A DNA stretch of 25,476 nucleotides from a virus (UHGV-1800104); one strand, 5' to 3'. Shown: positions 2,995 to 22,034, counted from the first letter of the stretch. Numbers and translations are program-made. The notes: a model not told the origin generated them from the letters alone.

Positions 2995-3200
2995 ATTTGA
3001 GAATCAAAATGTAATTTTAAAAGAGAAGCACCCAAAAATCCACACCAAACGAGACAAAAAAGAGCGCTTGTTGAGTTTATTTTGAGAATATCTTAATCAC
3101 CCACTGAATGATGGCCTGATAGTGAGATTTATTTGAGAATGAATTGAGAATACAAAAATATTCCGAAATTTAACTCTCCGTTTGAATGACGAAATAACAA
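2995..3200. promoter_or_regulatory. parC-like centromere/promoter region with repeated TTGAGAAT motifs, also holding the divergent promoter for the forward operon
   Basis: Exact TTGAGAAT at 2997, 3082, 3133 and 3144, with variants at 3071 and 3182. Pairs are spaced 11 bp apart (3071/3082, 3133/3144), i.e. one helical turn, as in R1 parC iterons. Confidence 0.4.
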
Positions 3201-3236
3201 AGTGATGACAATAGGAGGATAACCAGGAGGTGAAGA

Positions 3237-3521
3237 ATGAGCGCAATAGCCACCAGCGACACCCTTTGTTCTGGTCACGGAGGATTTCCGCCGCGACTGG
3301 TAGCTGAAACCGTTCCCTGGTTCACCGTTAACGGTAAGCCAGTTGTTGTAGATGGTGCCATGTTTCCCAGTCACACTGACGGTAACAGTGCACACCCAGG
3401 GGCAGCTGTATCGACGCGAGTATGGTTTTCGATAGGTGGAAAGGGAGTTGTCTGTGTAGGCGATCCGCTTTCTTGTGGTTCTGTTATCGCCAACGGCGAG
3501 GATATTTTTCAGGTTGCATAA
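3237..3521 (+). CDS. PAAR-like small protein (possible spike-tip protein), 94 aa
   Basis: Strong RBS GGAGG about 5 nt upstream. Contains NGKPVVVDG and VCVGDPLSCGSVIANG, resembling the xARVGD...C...G and G.PTV.I.G elements of PAAR proteins, although no literal PAAR tetrapeptide is present. Confidence 0.4.
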   Translation: MSAIATSDTLCSGHGGFPPRLVAETVPWFTVNGKPVVVDGAMFPSHTDGNSAHPGAAVSTRVWFSIGGKGVVCVGDPLSCGSVIANGEDIFQVA

Positions 3522-4382: not shown

Positions 4383-4856
4383 ATGAACCTGAAGAGGATG
4401 GTTTTGAAAAAGATAATTTTGATTGTAATTGCGCTTTTAGCCATTTCTGGAATTTACCGAACAACGACGGCAGTTATCGAACACATCAGGTATGTCCGAT
4501 CGCTTGAAGACTCAAAATCACAACTGGAAAGCACGAACAACACGCTTTCTACCGCATTACAGTTAAGTGAGAACGCTCGCTCAGCCATGCTGACCGAAAA
4601 CGAAAGAATTAAAGCACTGGAAAAGGAGTACCAGCGCAAAACAGCAGAACTGAATGCCAACCTAATCAAACAACGGGAGGAAAGCCAGAATGAAATCACT
4701 CGCCTTGAAAATGCGTTACGCCGTGCTGGGATTAACGATGTGCGTGTGCCTGATGACGTTATCAGGATGCAGCGGGAACGGGCAAAAGCCATCAACCAGC
4801 GTGCCAGTGAAAATTACCGTAGAAGCCACCAGCAAGCCGCAGGCAAATCTGATTGA
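4383..4856 (+). CDS. Rz-like i-spanin (inner-membrane spanin)
   Basis: N-terminal transmembrane segment KKIILIVIALLAISGIY followed by a long charged, coiled-coil-like periplasmic region; an overlapping lipoprotein gene lies in another frame at its 3' end. Start could be 4383 or 4398. Confidence 0.7.
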   Translation: MNLKRMVLKKIILIVIALLAISGIYRTTTAVIEHIRYVRSLEDSKSQLESTNNTLSTALQLSENARSAMLTENERIKALEKEYQRKTAELNANLIKQREESQNEITRLENALRRAGINDVRVPDDVIRMQRERAKAINQRASENYRRSHQQAAGKSD

Positions 4857-5022
4857 TTACTCCCCTTGTTTAGTGCCAGAAGACACGCCAGTGCTGTTAA
4901 ACAAGTATCCGACATACGCTGAACAGCTATTCAGCACGATCGACGAATGCAACCAACGAAACGCACTGAATAACCAAAGAAACAGGGAGATTTGGGAAGG
5001 GAAGGGGGATCAAGGCTCCTGA
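4690..5022 (+). CDS. Rz1-like o-spanin (outer-membrane lipoprotein), overlapping the 3' end of the i-spanin gene out of frame
   Basis: MKSLALKMRYAVLGLTMCVCLMTLSGC gives a positive n-region, hydrophobic h-region and an LSGC lipobox; the mature part is Pro-rich. GGGAGG lies about 9 nt upstream of the ATG at 4690. Confidence 0.7.
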   Translation: MKSLALKMRYAVLGLTMCVCLMTLSGCSGNGQKPSTSVPVKITVEATSKPQANLIDYSPCLVPEDTPVLLNKYPTYAEQLFSTIDECNQRNALNNQRNREIWEGKGDQGS

Positions 5023-5468
5023 AGCCAGATGTCCTGGCTGTCAGCTTCTTCGAAACCGTGACAGACGTTAAAGTCACTCAAACGATACTGACGCTGACGG
5101 CCCCTATTTCGCTCATGCCAATGCATATATCCACCAGCAAATGCCAGCGGACAATCGCTATAGTCTATGTAACCAATACCATTCCCCAAACGTGCTTCGC
5201 GCGCACCAGCTTTCCAGGACAGTAGAAAAGAGTCACGATCCGCCAGCATAACAACAAAATCGTCCGGATCTCCGATACAGTGAAGAATACCTGCCTTACA
5301 TAACTGCTTGAGCGCTTTTGACTGGCTCAGGATGTCTTCTCCGTAATACTGAAAACAATCATCAACAACAGCGGGATAGCCTGCCGGGGGATTCAGGCTG
5401 GTTGGTATAGCTGACGCGATCGCCAGCATTAAGCGATATTGTGTTTTTGATGGGTTAACGTGACTCAT
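5010..5468 (-). CDS. hypothetical protein, 152 aa (second gene of an opposite-strand cassette)
   Basis: Intact ORF with AAGGGA about 4 nt upstream, 16 nt downstream of the preceding minus-strand ORF; no family recognised. Its 3' end overlaps the o-spanin 3' end convergently. Confidence 0.55.
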   Translation of the reverse strand: MSHVNPSKTQYRLMLAIASAIPTSLNPPAGYPAVVDDCFQYYGEDILSQSKALKQLCKAGILHCIGDPDDFVVMLADRDSFLLSWKAGAREARLGNGIGYIDYSDCPLAFAGGYMHWHERNRGRQRQYRLSDFNVCHGFEEADSQDIWLQEP

Positions 5469-5484
5469 TTTGTCCCTTGTTTAC

Positions 5485-5877
5485 TCATTGTCGCCATGCA
5501 TTTTTTAACTCAGGAATATCTGCCATTTCAATTAACTTGCGAAGTCCAGCACTGACTTTCCCATTGCCAACCATAGCAAGCCAATCTCTTACAGCTTTCG
5601 GCATGTAGAGCGTTGCAGTTACCGGCTCTTCAACCCTGGCAGGACATCCGCATACAGGCCATTTAATTGATTCCATAACTTCGGATGCCGGGGTGAGGGC
5701 GGGGACATTGAGTATATCTCTACCAGAAAACTGGATAACGATCCGTTCAGCGAGCGAGAGTATCTCACTTTCGGCAAGAATTGATGCCAACTGCGCCTCA
5801 ACAAGAAAGCGACTTGTTGTGTTCAGAGAGTGGCTCTTAGCGCCATTTTTATACGAAACAAAGATTCGATACGCCAT
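5485..5877 (-). CDS. hypothetical protein, 130 aa (first gene of an opposite-strand cassette); C-terminal segment may be DNA-binding
   Basis: Intact ORF reading away from an AT-rich intergenic region (5878..6035). C-terminal PKAVRDWLAMVGNGKVSAGLRKLIEMA has a helix-turn-helix-like look, which is weak evidence. Confidence 0.5.
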   Translation of the reverse strand: MAYRIFVSYKNGAKSHSLNTTSRFLVEAQLASILAESEILSLAERIVIQFSGRDILNVPALTPASEVMESIKWPVCGCPARVEEPVTATLYMPKAVRDWLAMVGNGKVSAGLRKLIEMADIPELKNAWRQ

Positions 5878-6035
5878 AACTCTAATGATTTGTGTTAGAA
5901 AACTAAAATTAAATCACATAACAACATGCGTGTTAATAGATTTTATTTTACTAAACCTATTGACTAAATCACAAAGTAGGTATTGTTAGCCCGTCAAAAG
6001 AACCTTCACGCCGCGCCCGAATTTAGGGCTTAACC

Positions 6036-7733
6036 GTGAATAAAAACATTCAGCCAGCTCGTGATCGCGAGCGCGAGATTATGAATCGGGCGGCAAGCGT
6101 CATGGCTATGACCGTCGATCCGACCACCGATGCAGCAGGCAACATGATTGCTGACCAGGCAGTAATGATGGAAAACCTGGATAAAGCAATCCAGAAAGTG
6201 CCTATGTTTGAAGGCGTAAATCCAGAGGTCGCTCGTCAGATCACTGGTGGGTGGGCTATGTCTCTGCATGAGTATAAACGTCAACATGGTCATTACCCGG
6301 CAAGTGACATCCTGGCGAACGCACACATGGCTCTTGAACGCCTGATGACTGAATGTGCCAGTGATACCCATGAAGGCACGGGTAAGGCAATGTTTGAGTC
6401 TGTCGCGCAATCAATGCGTAGCTCTGACGGCGTAATGAAAGTTGCTCAATATGCTGCTCTAATTCTGCCTGCCTCTCTGGGCGCTGCTACCAGTGATGCC
6501 TGTACTTTTGTTCCTTGTGATCGTGACGAGTCAAATATTTATGAACTGGTCAACGTAGCAGGCACAAAATTCGGCACCTTCAAACAAGGTGACGAACTGA
6601 ATATGCAGTCAGCTGGTGTTTATTCTCAAATGAAGCGCCTGTATACCCTTTCCACTAAAGGGGATGGCAGCACCAAAACCTTCCAGTTCGACATCCAAAA
6701 TTTTGAGGGACAATCCTGCCCGCTTCGCGCTGGTTATAACAAACTGCTGATCAACCGCAAACCGTCCAAAGTTGACGACGGCGATGGCAACCTTTATTTC
6801 AATGCTAAAGACAGCAAAGGTAATGCTTTCTCAGCGACTGCCAAAGTTGCCTATGACACTGGTGTCATTGACATTACATTTACCCAGGCTCCGCCAGAAG
6901 GTACTGAAATTGCTGTTCAGGTCGAAATTAACATCGAGCGCAATCCAAGCCTGATTCCTGTGATCAACCAGGCTATGCGTAAGTACGAAGTTCGTCCGTC
7001 CCAGTACGTAATTGCTTCCGAACACACGGTAATGTCCGCATCCGATTTAAGCCGTGAGCACGGCCTTGAATTAGCGGCACTTCAGTTCTCCGCGATGCGT
7101 AACTGGATCTCCCATGAAACCGACATCATGCGTCTGCGCACCCTGGTATTCCATACCGTTTATGGTCGTGAATTTGATGTGGCTCTGCCGGAAGCTCAAA
7201 ACTATGAGTCCTGGGTCGGCCTCCTGCGTCACGTAGTAAACGCTCTGTCTCAGGAAATGGCAAATCGTACCCTGACAACGGGGATTCGTGGCGGCTTTGC
7301 TGGTGGTGACGCCGCGAACTTCCTGCGCTCTCTGCCTCCACAGCACTTCCAGATCGCACCAGGTTACGTTCAGTCGCCGTATGTACAGTACATCGGCACC
7401 CTGTTTGGCACGATTCGTATTTACGAAGTGCCGCAACCTGTCTGTGAGCAATTCCAGGCACAGGGATATGACTTCGGGCTGGATGACATCTTCTTCTATG
7501 GGCGTGGCGAAGGCATCGGTAAAGCCGGTCTGATTGCTGGTGATGCAGTCCCAGCAATCCCTTACGTGCACGAAACCAATCCGTCTCTCGTTAACCGTAC
7601 CACTCTCTGGGGCAGTGCCATCAACGAAGTGCATCCTCGCAACGGTGAAAACTACTTCACCCGCCTGCGTCTGACTCGTGCCAAAGAAGGTGCTATCGAC
7701 ATGCTGACAGGCAAGGTTAACGAAAAAAAGTGA
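6036..7733 (+). CDS. major virion protein, 565 aa; putative major capsid protein with a charged N-terminal delta-like region
   Basis: Long ORF at the head of the forward structural block, just upstream of an Ig-like protein gene and the sheath gene. Charged, helix-prone N-terminus. Start is GTG 6036 (AGGG upstream) or ATG 6081. The capsid assignment is by position and size only. Confidence 0.35.
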   Translation: MNKNIQPARDREREIMNRAASVMAMTVDPTTDAAGNMIADQAVMMENLDKAIQKVPMFEGVNPEVARQITGGWAMSLHEYKRQHGHYPASDILANAHMALERLMTECASDTHEGTGKAMFESVAQSMRSSDGVMKVAQYAALILPASLGAATSDACTFVPCDRDESNIYELVNVAGTKFGTFKQGDELNMQSAGVYSQMKRLYTLSTKGDGSTKTFQFDIQNFEGQSCPLRAGYNKLLINRKPSKVDDGDGNLYFNAKDSKGNAFSATAKVAYDTGVIDITFTQAPPEGTEIAVQVEINIERNPSLIPVINQAMRKYEVRPSQYVIASEHTVMSASDLSREHGLELAALQFSAMRNWISHETDIMRLRTLVFHTVYGREFDVALPEAQNYESWVGLLRHVVNALSQEMANRTLTTGIRGGFAGGDAANFLRSLPPQHFQIAPGYVQSPYVQYIGTLFGTIRIYEVPQPVCEQFQAQGYDFGLDDIFFYGRGEGIGKAGLIAGDAVPAIPYVHETNPSLVNRTTLWGSAINEVHPRNGENYFTRLRLTRAKEGAIDMLTGKVNEKK

Positions 7734-14554: not shown

Positions 14555-14658
14555 TAATCGCTTCTCGACCGGCAAAGATCTTCATTCAATCCCCATCGCA
14601 AATCACACACTCCCTATCCTCTGGAAAATGAACAGATACCTGCTTTTCGGAGGAATAC

Positions 14659-21969: not shown

Positions 21970-22034
21970 CAACGGAAATCACAAACTGAGCATACTCTCC
22001 TTTGGTTCATTGCTTATGAAGGAGCTATGTTCGT

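What the first reader, a model, noticed from the sequence alone, without database searches (positions are those of the whole stretch)
5010..5877. Opposite-strand two-gene cassette of unknown function between the lysis and virion modules
Two ORFs (130 aa, then 152 aa, 16 nt apart) read against every neighbouring phage gene. They sit between the spanin pair and the first virion gene and have their own AT-rich upstream region (5878..6035) with TAAATCACA repeated at about 5916 and 5968. I recognise no family for either protein; the first has a possible DNA-binding C-terminus (GKVSAGLRKLIEMA). Inverted insertions at module boundaries are where phages usually carry accessory cargo such as defense, anti-defense, toxin-antitoxin or lysogenic-conversion genes, so this is my best candidate for an undescribed system here.
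Basis: partly seen in the sequence, partly recalled or inferred. Interest (0 to 1): 0.7.

Follow-up and report, generated by a model that had tools for sequence, protein, structure and literature searches.

The report
Two unrelated phage genes, not a system
The two opposite-strand genes are real, conserved genes of unknown function in a D6-type (P1-like) phage-plasmid. They are independent genes that happen to be neighbours in this lineage, probably switched on early in lytic growth, and are not a paired toxin-antitoxin or defence system.

Summary
The ORFs are as described: 130 aa at 5877..5485 and 152 aa at 5468..5010, minus strand, 16 nt apart. The window is a D6-like P1-family phage-plasmid, and the genes are D6 orf52 and orf53 (PHROGs 7830 and 8101, function unknown). 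Pfam, NCBIfam, PADLOC and PDB gave no match.

The pair is not an obligate unit. Twelve D6-like plasmids keep orf52 but carry a c4-icd-antirepressor module in place of orf53. In the Pantoea plasmid pEuc3, and apparently in Citrobacter plasmids, the two homologues lie tens of kb apart. orf53 homologues normally sit in the cre/ref early region.

orf52 is always the first gene head-to-head with the major capsid gene. The slot behind it holds varying cargo: orf53, umuDC, RelE-HTH, NinX or nothing.

The proximal TAAATCACA copy is the D6-type late-promoter box of the capsid gene; the same box occurs 11 times in D6. A perfect copy of the inferred C1 operator lies 10 nt upstream of the orf52 start codon. 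This suggests a repressor-controlled early operon rather than prophage-expressed cargo.

Both genes are under purifying selection. An orf52 C-terminal ribbon-helix-helix domain is plausible but unproven. The biochemical function of both proteins remains unknown. Interest is low to moderate.

The parts
5485..5877 (-). orf52 homologue (130 aa). N-terminal alpha/beta domain of about 70 aa, plus a C-terminal strand-helix-helix segment (TATLYMPKAVRDWLAMVGNGKVSAGLRKLIEMA) that may be a ribbon-helix-helix domain. It is a backbone gene, always head-to-head with the capsid gene.
   Evidence: ORF. It is 99% identical to D6 orf52 and matches phrog_7830. AF2 model pLDDT is 74. Family alignment. Synteny in 8 genera. 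dN/dS is 0.15.
5010..5468 (-). orf53 homologue (152 aa). Small ORFan family with invariant H116, C136-H137-G138 and aromatic residues. It is a mobile early-region accessory gene.
   Evidence: ORF. It is 100% identical to D6 orf53 and matches phrog_8101. Only 23 representatives were found among 1.8 billion proteins. Alignment. dN/dS is 0.02. Homologues sit elsewhere in other elements.
5469..5484 (-). 16-nt spacer with an AAGGGA Shine-Dalgarno-like sequence in front of orf53. Co-transcription with orf52 is inferred.
   Evidence: Read directly from the sequence. No terminator-like site lies between the genes.
5888..5902 (-). Perfect copy of TTTTCTAACACAAAT, the inferred D6-type C1 repressor operator, ending 10 nt upstream of the orf52 ATG.
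   Evidence: It is the only match in the window. In D6 the motif lies upstream of c1, lpa, hrdC, the ref-divergent operon and the repL/icd region. Two of these positions are equivalent to P1 Olpa and Odmt.
5945..5974 (-). Sigma-70-like promoter candidate for orf52: -35 TTGTGA at 5974..5969 and -10 TAAAAT at 5950..5945. Its -35 is the complement of the capsid late-promoter box.
   Evidence: Consensus scan. The hexamer positions are kept in three relatives. Function has not been shown.
5966..5986 (+). Late promoter of capsid gene 23 (LP23 equivalent): box AAATCACAAAGT, 3 nt, then -10 TATTGT. It contains the proximal TAAATCACA copy.
   Evidence: The composite pattern occurs 4 times in the window, all upstream of plus-strand late operons, against 0.18 expected. 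It occurs 11 times in D6, each upstream of a late operon. P1 LP23 has the same architecture with a different box.
5910..5918 (+). Distal TAAATCACA copy, followed by a poor -10 (ATGCGT). It is a degenerate or auxiliary late-promoter box whose role is unresolved.
   Evidence: It is less conserved in relatives than the proximal copy.

Best explanation
The 'cassette' is a lineage-specific juxtaposition of two independent phage-plasmid genes in one small transcription unit. It is not a dedicated two-component system.

orf52 is a backbone gene of D6-group P1-like phage-plasmids. It always sits head-to-head with the late promoter of the major capsid gene and opens a slot that holds different cargo in different elements. 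Its C-terminus probably forms a dimeric ribbon-helix-helix-type DNA-binding domain, so it most likely acts as a transcription regulator of the divergent promoter region (inferred).

orf53 is one such cargo. It is a strongly constrained early-region accessory protein whose usual home in related elements is the cre/ref early gene cluster.

A perfect copy of the inferred C1 operator lies just upstream of orf52. The unit is therefore most likely silent in the plasmid prophage and expressed early after induction or infection, before Lpa turns on the overlapping capsid late promoter (inferred).

Shown: gene reality, separability, synteny and the identity of the motifs. Inferred: C1 control, timing, DNA binding by orf52, and any biochemical activity of orf53.
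For: Identity: the region is 99.2% identical to phage D6 and is present in 121 PLSDB plasmids.

Separability:
- pF719-4 and 11 other plasmids keep orf52 but have c4-icd-ORF6N in exact place of orf53.
- Pantoea pEuc3 has the orf52 homologue beside the capsid gene and the orf53 homologue downstream of cre, tens of kb away.
- Two Citrobacter records of identical length show the same split: the orf52 homologue next to the capsid gene in one, the orf53 homologue in the cre region of the other.
- orf53 homologues at 60% identity follow unrelated genes near ref.
- A 34% homologue lies in a long early-type gene string of Vibrio phage douglas 12A4.
- Vibrio plasmids have orf53 homologues but no orf52 homologue.

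Anchor role of orf52: it is the first gene divergent from the capsid gene in Leclercia, Citrobacter, Enterobacter, Xenorhabdus, Pantoea, Hafnia and Yersinia elements, with varying downstream genes.

Mosaic evolution: against a Salmonella relative, the capsid protein is 91% identical, orf52 65% and orf53 96%, with dS 2.2 against 0.9-1.1 for the neighbours.

Regulation: late-promoter box; operator motif, with positional equivalence to P1 Olpa and Odmt; P1 has 22 dispersed asymmetric C1 operators (PMC8546580).

orf52 fold: two C-terminal helices preceded by a conserved hydrophobic strand and a G-x-G-x-x-S turn. hhalign places it in register with Arc, Mnt, CopG, NikR and ParD.
Against: - The operator is identified by analogy with P1; no binding data exist. 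It lies between the only consensus promoter candidate and the start codon, not over the -35 as in P1 Plpa and Pdmt, so the mode of repression is unclear.
- The promoter itself is only a consensus match: 1 site in the scanned region against 2.7 expected in shuffles.
- Both families occur together at genome level in most Enterobacterales elements, going by genus counts. A functional link acting in trans is therefore not excluded.
- Nothing here reveals what either protein does biochemically.
Confidence: 0.5

Rival explanations
1. The pair is a novel type II toxin-antitoxin, abortive-infection or defence module. orf52 would be a DNA-binding antitoxin or regulator and orf53 the toxin or effector.
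For: The genes are small and adjacent, 16 nt apart, with a possible ribbon-helix-helix domain in the first gene. The same slot holds RelE-HTH modules in Hafnia and Xenorhabdus relatives. orf53 has invariant His and Cys-His residues that could be catalytic.
Against: - orf53 homologues occur without an adjacent orf52 homologue in several elements, and orf52 occurs without orf53 in 12 plasmids.
- The two genes do not co-evolve: 65% against 96% identity in the same relative.
- There are no PADLOC, Pfam or NCBIfam toxin or defence hits.
- The putative DNA-binding domain is C-terminal, and the element already carries phd-doc and higBA.
- A C1 operator implies silence in the prophage.
Confidence: 0.07
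2. The unit is a prophage-expressed moron giving lysogenic conversion or superinfection exclusion. It would be transcribed in the lysogen from its own sigma-70 promoter, with orf52 as autoregulator.
For: The orientation is inverted relative to the late operons. There is an AT-rich upstream region with a sigma-70-like promoter. The locus is a variable cargo site.
Against: A perfect C1-operator-like site sits directly upstream of orf52. In other elements orf53 homologues lie among early lytic and DNA-metabolism genes: ref, RdgC, dut and oligoribonuclease. GC content is like the rest of the element, so nothing points to recent import.
Confidence: 0.15
3. orf52 is functionally tied to the capsid gene rather than to its own operon. 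It would modulate the late promoter LP23, either as a brake until Lpa accumulates or as a co-activator, or it would act in head morphogenesis. orf53 would be an unrelated passenger.
For: The head-to-head position with the capsid gene is invariant across eight genera while everything downstream varies. The candidate orf52 -35 hexamer is the complement of the LP23 box, so the two promoters overlap physically.
Against: P1 has no orf52 homologue yet has a working LP23. No structural or sequence similarity to morphogenetic proteins was found. Conserved synteny alone does not show a functional link.
Confidence: 0.2

Closest known systems
Escherichia phage D6 orf52 / orf53 (MF356679; PHROG 7830 / 8101)
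   Same: The proteins are 99-100% identical, with the same position and orientation between orf54 and the major capsid gene. They are full-length matches to the two PHROG profiles.
   Different: Nothing differs; these are the same genes. They are annotated only as hypothetical proteins, and both PHROGs are of unknown function.
P1 C1-controlled early operons (for example Plpa/Olpa = Op94, Pdmt/Odmt = Op68)
   Same: A single asymmetric operator-like sequence sits in front of a small operon. The D6 motif copies lie at positions equivalent to P1 Olpa (about 74 nt against 71 nt before the lpa start) and Odmt (upstream of hrdC).
   Different: The operator sequence differs: TTTTCTAACACAAAT against ATTGCTCTAATAAATTT, about 10 of 17 positions by eye. 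Here it abuts the ribosome-binding site instead of overlapping a recognisable -35. C1 binding was not tested.
Ribbon-helix-helix regulators (Arc, Mnt, CopG, NikR N-domain, ParD)
   Same: The orf52 C-terminus has the pattern of a hydrophobic strand, helix, glycine turn with Ser, then helix. hhalign aligns it in register.
   Different: No significant profile or fold match was found. Helix A is about 4 residues shorter. The domain is C-terminal, behind an uncharacterised 70-aa alpha/beta domain with an invariant Y-x2-G-x2-S-H-x3-T loop.
Type II toxin-antitoxin modules (phd-doc and higBA on the same element; RelE-HTH in the same slot of relatives)
   Same: Two small co-directional genes, the first possibly DNA-binding, in a cargo slot that holds genuine TA pairs in Hafnia and Xenorhabdus elements.
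   Different: The two genes are separable and evolve independently, and there is no toxin homology.
P1 upfA (130 aa, between repA and mlp)
   Same: It occupies the corresponding interval between the spanin genes and gene 23 once the P1 rep-par block is set aside, and it has the same length as orf52.
   Different: It is on the opposite strand relative to its neighbours, and profile comparison detected no similarity.

Membership tests
Type II toxin-antitoxin system | The two genes are inherited and found together as an adjacent pair | tested here: not met
   orf52 occurs without orf53 in 12 plasmids. orf53 homologues sit next to unrelated genes or tens of kb from orf52 homologues.
Type II toxin-antitoxin system | The second protein belongs to, or folds like, a known toxin family | tested here: not met
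Type II toxin-antitoxin system | Toxicity of one product, neutralised by the other | not testable with these tools
   This needs expression experiments.
Known anti-phage defence systems (PADLOC-DB v2) | A protein matches a defence-system profile | tested here: not met
   No families matched either protein at E <= 1.
Ribbon-helix-helix DNA-binding superfamily (orf52 C-terminus) | A beta-alpha-alpha unit with a conserved turn, detectable by profile or fold | tested here: inconclusive
P1-type Lpa-dependent late promoter (the TAAATCACA motif) | A conserved box centred near -22 plus a -10 hexamer, with no -35, repeated upstream of the late operons | tested here: met
   AAAT[CA]ACA-N7-NANNNT occurs 11 times in D6, each upstream of a late operon. 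It occurs 4 times in the window against 0.18 expected. P1 LP23 is annotated with a -22 region and a -10, and P1 has 11 late promoters (PMC10695390). The box sequence differs from the P1 box AAGTGACTT. Dependence on Lpa was not tested.
P1-type C1-repressed early operon | A C1 operator at the promoter of the unit | tested here: inconclusive
   A perfect 15-mer is shared with sites upstream of c1, lpa, hrdC and others, at positions equivalent to P1 Olpa and Odmt. Binding and the promoter position have not been determined.
PHROG 7830 / PHROG 8101 | A full-length significant match to the family profile | tested here: met
   E = 7e-79 over 1-130 of 130, and E = 8e-98 over 1-152 of 152. Distant homologues also match.

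The most novel reading that the evidence does not exclude
orf53 may found an uncharacterised family of early phage proteins. The family is very strongly constrained (dN/dS 0.02), has an invariant His...Cys-His-Gly signature, and has only about 20 sequence clusters known. It would act as an enzyme or inhibitor in host takeover, recombination control or counter-defence. orf52 would be a fast-diverging DNA-binding specificity factor that gates a cargo slot beside the capsid promoter in P1-like phage-plasmids. Either would be a new functional class rather than a relative of anything described.
Probability: 0.2. Interest if true: 0.55.

Novelty: new member of a known kind. Interest (0 to 1): 0.3.

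Why it matters
D6-like phage-plasmids are common in E. coli, Salmonella and Shigella from food animals and patients: more than 120 complete plasmids in PLSDB. Knowing which of their genes are backbone and which are swappable cargo helps in reading their evolution. This work removes a tempting but wrong 'new two-gene defence/TA system' label. It identifies a cargo slot next to the capsid gene that carries TA modules, umuDC or extra antirepressor modules in relatives. It also gives working definitions of the D6-type late-promoter box and C1 operator, which can be used to annotate the whole group. The two proteins remain functionally unknown. orf53 is the better target for follow-up because it is small, strongly constrained and has candidate catalytic residues.

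Tried and rejected
- Profile searches of both proteins, and of their family alignments, found nothing beyond the two unknown-function PHROGs. Libraries searched were Pfam, NCBIfam, PADLOC, PHROGs and PDB sequences.
- The exact P1 C1 operator consensus is absent from the window.
- An ACTAAnTTAGT palindrome seen upstream of lydA is not a general late-promoter element.
- Homology of orf52 to P1 UpfA, and of orf53 to D6 orf116, was rejected by hhalign.
- The genes upstream of orf53 homologues in other elements are unrelated to orf52 by BLASTP. The small upstream ORFs in Pantoea and the Vibrio phage show no obvious resemblance by eye.
- The search for related loci with the divergent orf53 alignment failed for lack of a conserved block.
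- The D6 genome paper (Gilcrease and Casjens 2018) and the P1 genome paper are not held in the library.

Full report
**1. Observation.** The minus strand carries a 130-aa ORF (5877..5485) followed after 16 nt by a 152-aa ORF (5468..5010). The immediate neighbours are on the plus strand: upfC, upfB and an overlapping membrane-protein/lipoprotein pair on the left, and the major capsid gene from 6036 on the right. The upstream region 5878-6035 is AT-rich, at 34% GC against 46% for the window. TAAATCACA occurs at 5910-5918 and 5965-5973. On its own, a 9-nt repeat there appears in 6.4% of shuffles.

**2. What the window is.** The region is 99.2% identical to Escherichia phage D6, a P1-like plasmid prophage, and matches 121 PLSDB plasmids from Escherichia, Salmonella and Shigella. 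The two ORFs are D6 orf52 and orf53, annotated as hypothetical proteins. In P1 the interval between gene 23 and the spanin-like mlp/ppfA pair holds parS-parB-parA-repA-upfA. D6-type elements keep their replicon elsewhere and have orf52-orf53 in this interval.

**3. No known family.**
- Pfam, NCBIfam and PADLOC gave no hit, and PDB sequence searches gave only non-significant matches (E > 0.2). Each protein fully matches only a PHROG of unknown function, 7830 and 8101.
- An exhaustive profile search for orf53 found 23 representatives among 1.8 billion proteins.
- A profile search for orf52 found 42 clusters. The named ones are all Enterobacterales apart from one Acinetobacter plasmid, and many sit on contigs of about 90 kb.
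- The orf52 AF2 model (pLDDT 74) shows an N-terminal beta-alpha-beta-beta-alpha domain and three C-terminal helices. It has no convincing structural neighbour.
- The orf53 model is unusable, with pLDDT 46.

**4. The pair is separable. This is the main result.**
- In pF719-4, orf52 is intact but the segment corresponding to orf53 is replaced by a c4-icd-ORF6N antirepressor module in the opposite orientation. Twelve PLSDB plasmids share this arrangement.
- orf53 homologues at about 60% identity lie in other P1-like elements downstream of ref, next to unrelated genes.
- In Pantoea pEuc3 the orf52 homologue is beside the capsid gene, while the orf53 homologue lies in the cre operon tens of kb away. 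Two Citrobacter records of identical length (84,106 bp) show the same split, the orf52 homologue in one and the orf53 homologue in the other.
- Vibrio phage-plasmids and Vibrio phage douglas 12A4 have orf53 homologues among early and DNA-metabolism genes (PadR, Ref, RdgC, oligoribonuclease). Neither tblastn search found an orf52 homologue in any Vibrio record.
- Against a Salmonella relative, the capsid protein is 91% identical, orf52 65% and orf53 96%. Synonymous divergence is 2.2 for orf52 against about 1 for its neighbours. The two genes therefore have different histories.
- Both are under purifying selection, with dN/dS 0.15 and 0.02.

**5. orf52 is an anchor gene of a cargo slot.** The orf52 homologue is the first gene divergent from the major capsid gene in Leclercia, Citrobacter, Enterobacter, Xenorhabdus, Pantoea, Hafnia and Yersinia elements. 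What follows it varies: umuDC, a string of small genes, nothing, NinX plus RelE/ParE-NadS, a convergent large gene, RelE-HTH, or small genes.

The family alignment shows an invariant M-x-Y...Y-x2-G-x2-S-H-x3-T N-terminal signature. It also shows a conserved C-terminal block (T-A-T-L-Y-M-P ... D-W-L ... G-x-G-x-x-S-x-G-L). That block reads like a ribbon-helix-helix unit. hhalign puts it in register with Arc, Mnt, CopG, NikR and ParD, but only weakly, with P = 0.026. I treat DNA binding as plausible, not established.

**6. orf53.** Across 15 divergent members the invariant residues are Y41, F81, G88, G95, Y100, F110, G113, H116 and C136-H137-G138. The N-terminal half is variable. The strong constraint and the His/Cys-His signature suggest a specific binding or catalytic function, but nothing here identifies it.

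**7. The upstream region.**
- The proximal TAAATCACA copy belongs to AAATCACAAAGT-N3-TATTGT. The composite pattern AAAT[CA]ACA-N7-NANNNT occurs four times in the window, against 0.18 expected. All four are on the plus strand, just upstream of upfC, gene 23, pmgB and R.
- The same pattern occurs eleven times in D6, each upstream of a late operon.
- P1 has 11 Lpa-dependent late promoters, each with a conserved element (PMC10695390). The P1 record annotates LP23 with a '-22 region' plus a -10. The D6 box has a different sequence but the same architecture.
- At least the proximal repeat copy is therefore the capsid gene's late promoter, not an operator private to the cassette. The distal copy has a poor -10 and is less conserved.
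- On the minus strand, TTTTCTAACACAAAT (5902..5888) ends 10 nt before the orf52 ATG.
- In D6 this 15-mer, allowing up to 3 mismatches, marks several intergenic sites: upstream of c1, lpa and hrdC (an inverted pair), the operon divergent from ref, the repL/icd region, and next to cre.
- The lpa and hrdC sites correspond in position to the P1 C1 operators Olpa (Op94) and Odmt (Op68). P1 has 22 dispersed asymmetric C1 operators (PMC8546580).
- I infer that this is the D6-type C1 operator and that the orf52 unit is repressed in the prophage.
- The only consensus promoter candidate (-35 at 5974..5969, -10 at 5950..5945) overlaps the late-promoter box on the opposite strand. The true start site is unknown.

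**8. Mechanism and rivals.**
- Best reading (confidence about 0.5): a C1-controlled early transcription unit. It combines a conserved, probably DNA-binding backbone gene (orf52) with a mobile early accessory gene (orf53), in a slot that takes varied cargo.
- A TA or defence pair is unlikely (0.07), because the genes are separable, do not co-evolve, and have no toxin or defence homology.
- A prophage-expressed moron (0.15) is disfavoured by the operator and by the company orf53 keeps elsewhere.
- A capsid-linked role for orf52 (0.2) is suggested only by invariant synteny and promoter overlap.

**9. Comparison, novelty and score.** These are already-annotated hypothetical genes of a published phage. 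Nothing places them in a described functional family. The evidence points to an ordinary kind of unit, a repressor-controlled early accessory operon at a cargo hot spot, not to a new system. I rate interest at 0.3. The residual novelty lies in orf53 as a tightly constrained ORFan and in orf52 as the conserved gatekeeper of the slot.

**10. Limits.** No expression or binding data are available. The D6 and P1 genome papers could not be read.

Noticed in passing
window 3192-3212, 5966-5986, 14600-14620, 21976-21996 (all + strand): D6-type late-promoter consensus AAAT[CA]ACAnA[CG]T-N3-TAnnnT, found upstream of upfC, gene 23, pmgB and R. There are eleven copies in the whole D6 genome, one per late operon. 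The box differs from the P1 -22 box AAGTGACTT, which suggests a different Lpa specificity.
   Followed up: yes
window 5888-5902 (-); D6 genome (MF356679) positions 208, 4641, 21267, 54208, 64125/64136, 76637: The 15-mer TTTTCTAACACAAAT marks the presumed C1 regulon of D6-type elements. It could be used to annotate early operons across the group. At orf52 and hrdC it sits immediately before the ribosome-binding site, which is an unusual position for promoter occlusion.
   Followed up: partly
window 4383-4856 (+) and 4690/4801-5022 (+): An overlapping pair: an N-terminal transmembrane coiled-coil protein and a lipoprotein with an LSGC lipobox. This is probably an i-spanin/o-spanin pair. The hit to O_Spanin_T7 is weak (E = 0.01). 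The P1 counterpart mlp is annotated as an Rz-like spanin, and relatives hit LysC and DUF2570. The pair lies in a late operon with PAAR-motif UpfC (3237-3521), far from the holin genes.
   Followed up: partly
L015 2280-3900 (pF719-4) and 11 other plasmids: A c4-icd-ORF6N antirepressor (immI-type) module exactly replaces orf53. The search reports 3 places in most of these records that match this query, which may mean additional modules of this kind.
   Followed up: partly
L017, L022, L023 (Leclercia, Xenorhabdus, Hafnia elements), slot downstream of the orf52 homologue: The same slot carries umuDC, RelE/ParE-NadS-HicB fragments or RelE-HTH toxin-antitoxin genes. It is a recombination hot spot for accessory cargo next to the capsid gene.
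   Followed up: partly
window 5990-6045 (+); D6 about 72060-72100 upstream of mat: The capsid-gene leader is highly conserved across relatives and can fold into a hairpin that pairs UUCACG with CGUGAA, covering the GTG start codon (-13.6 kcal/mol, z = -2.3). A 17-nt stretch, CGTCAAAAGAACCTTCA, recurs with one mismatch in inverted orientation in the leader of the D6 mat late operon. This is unexplained.
   Followed up: partly
window 5485-5877 versus L002 8001-8393: orf52 is far more diverged (65% aa, dS 2.2) than the genes on either side (91% and 96% aa). This looks like allelic replacement of this one gene, a pattern typical of specificity or immunity determinants.
   Followed up: partly
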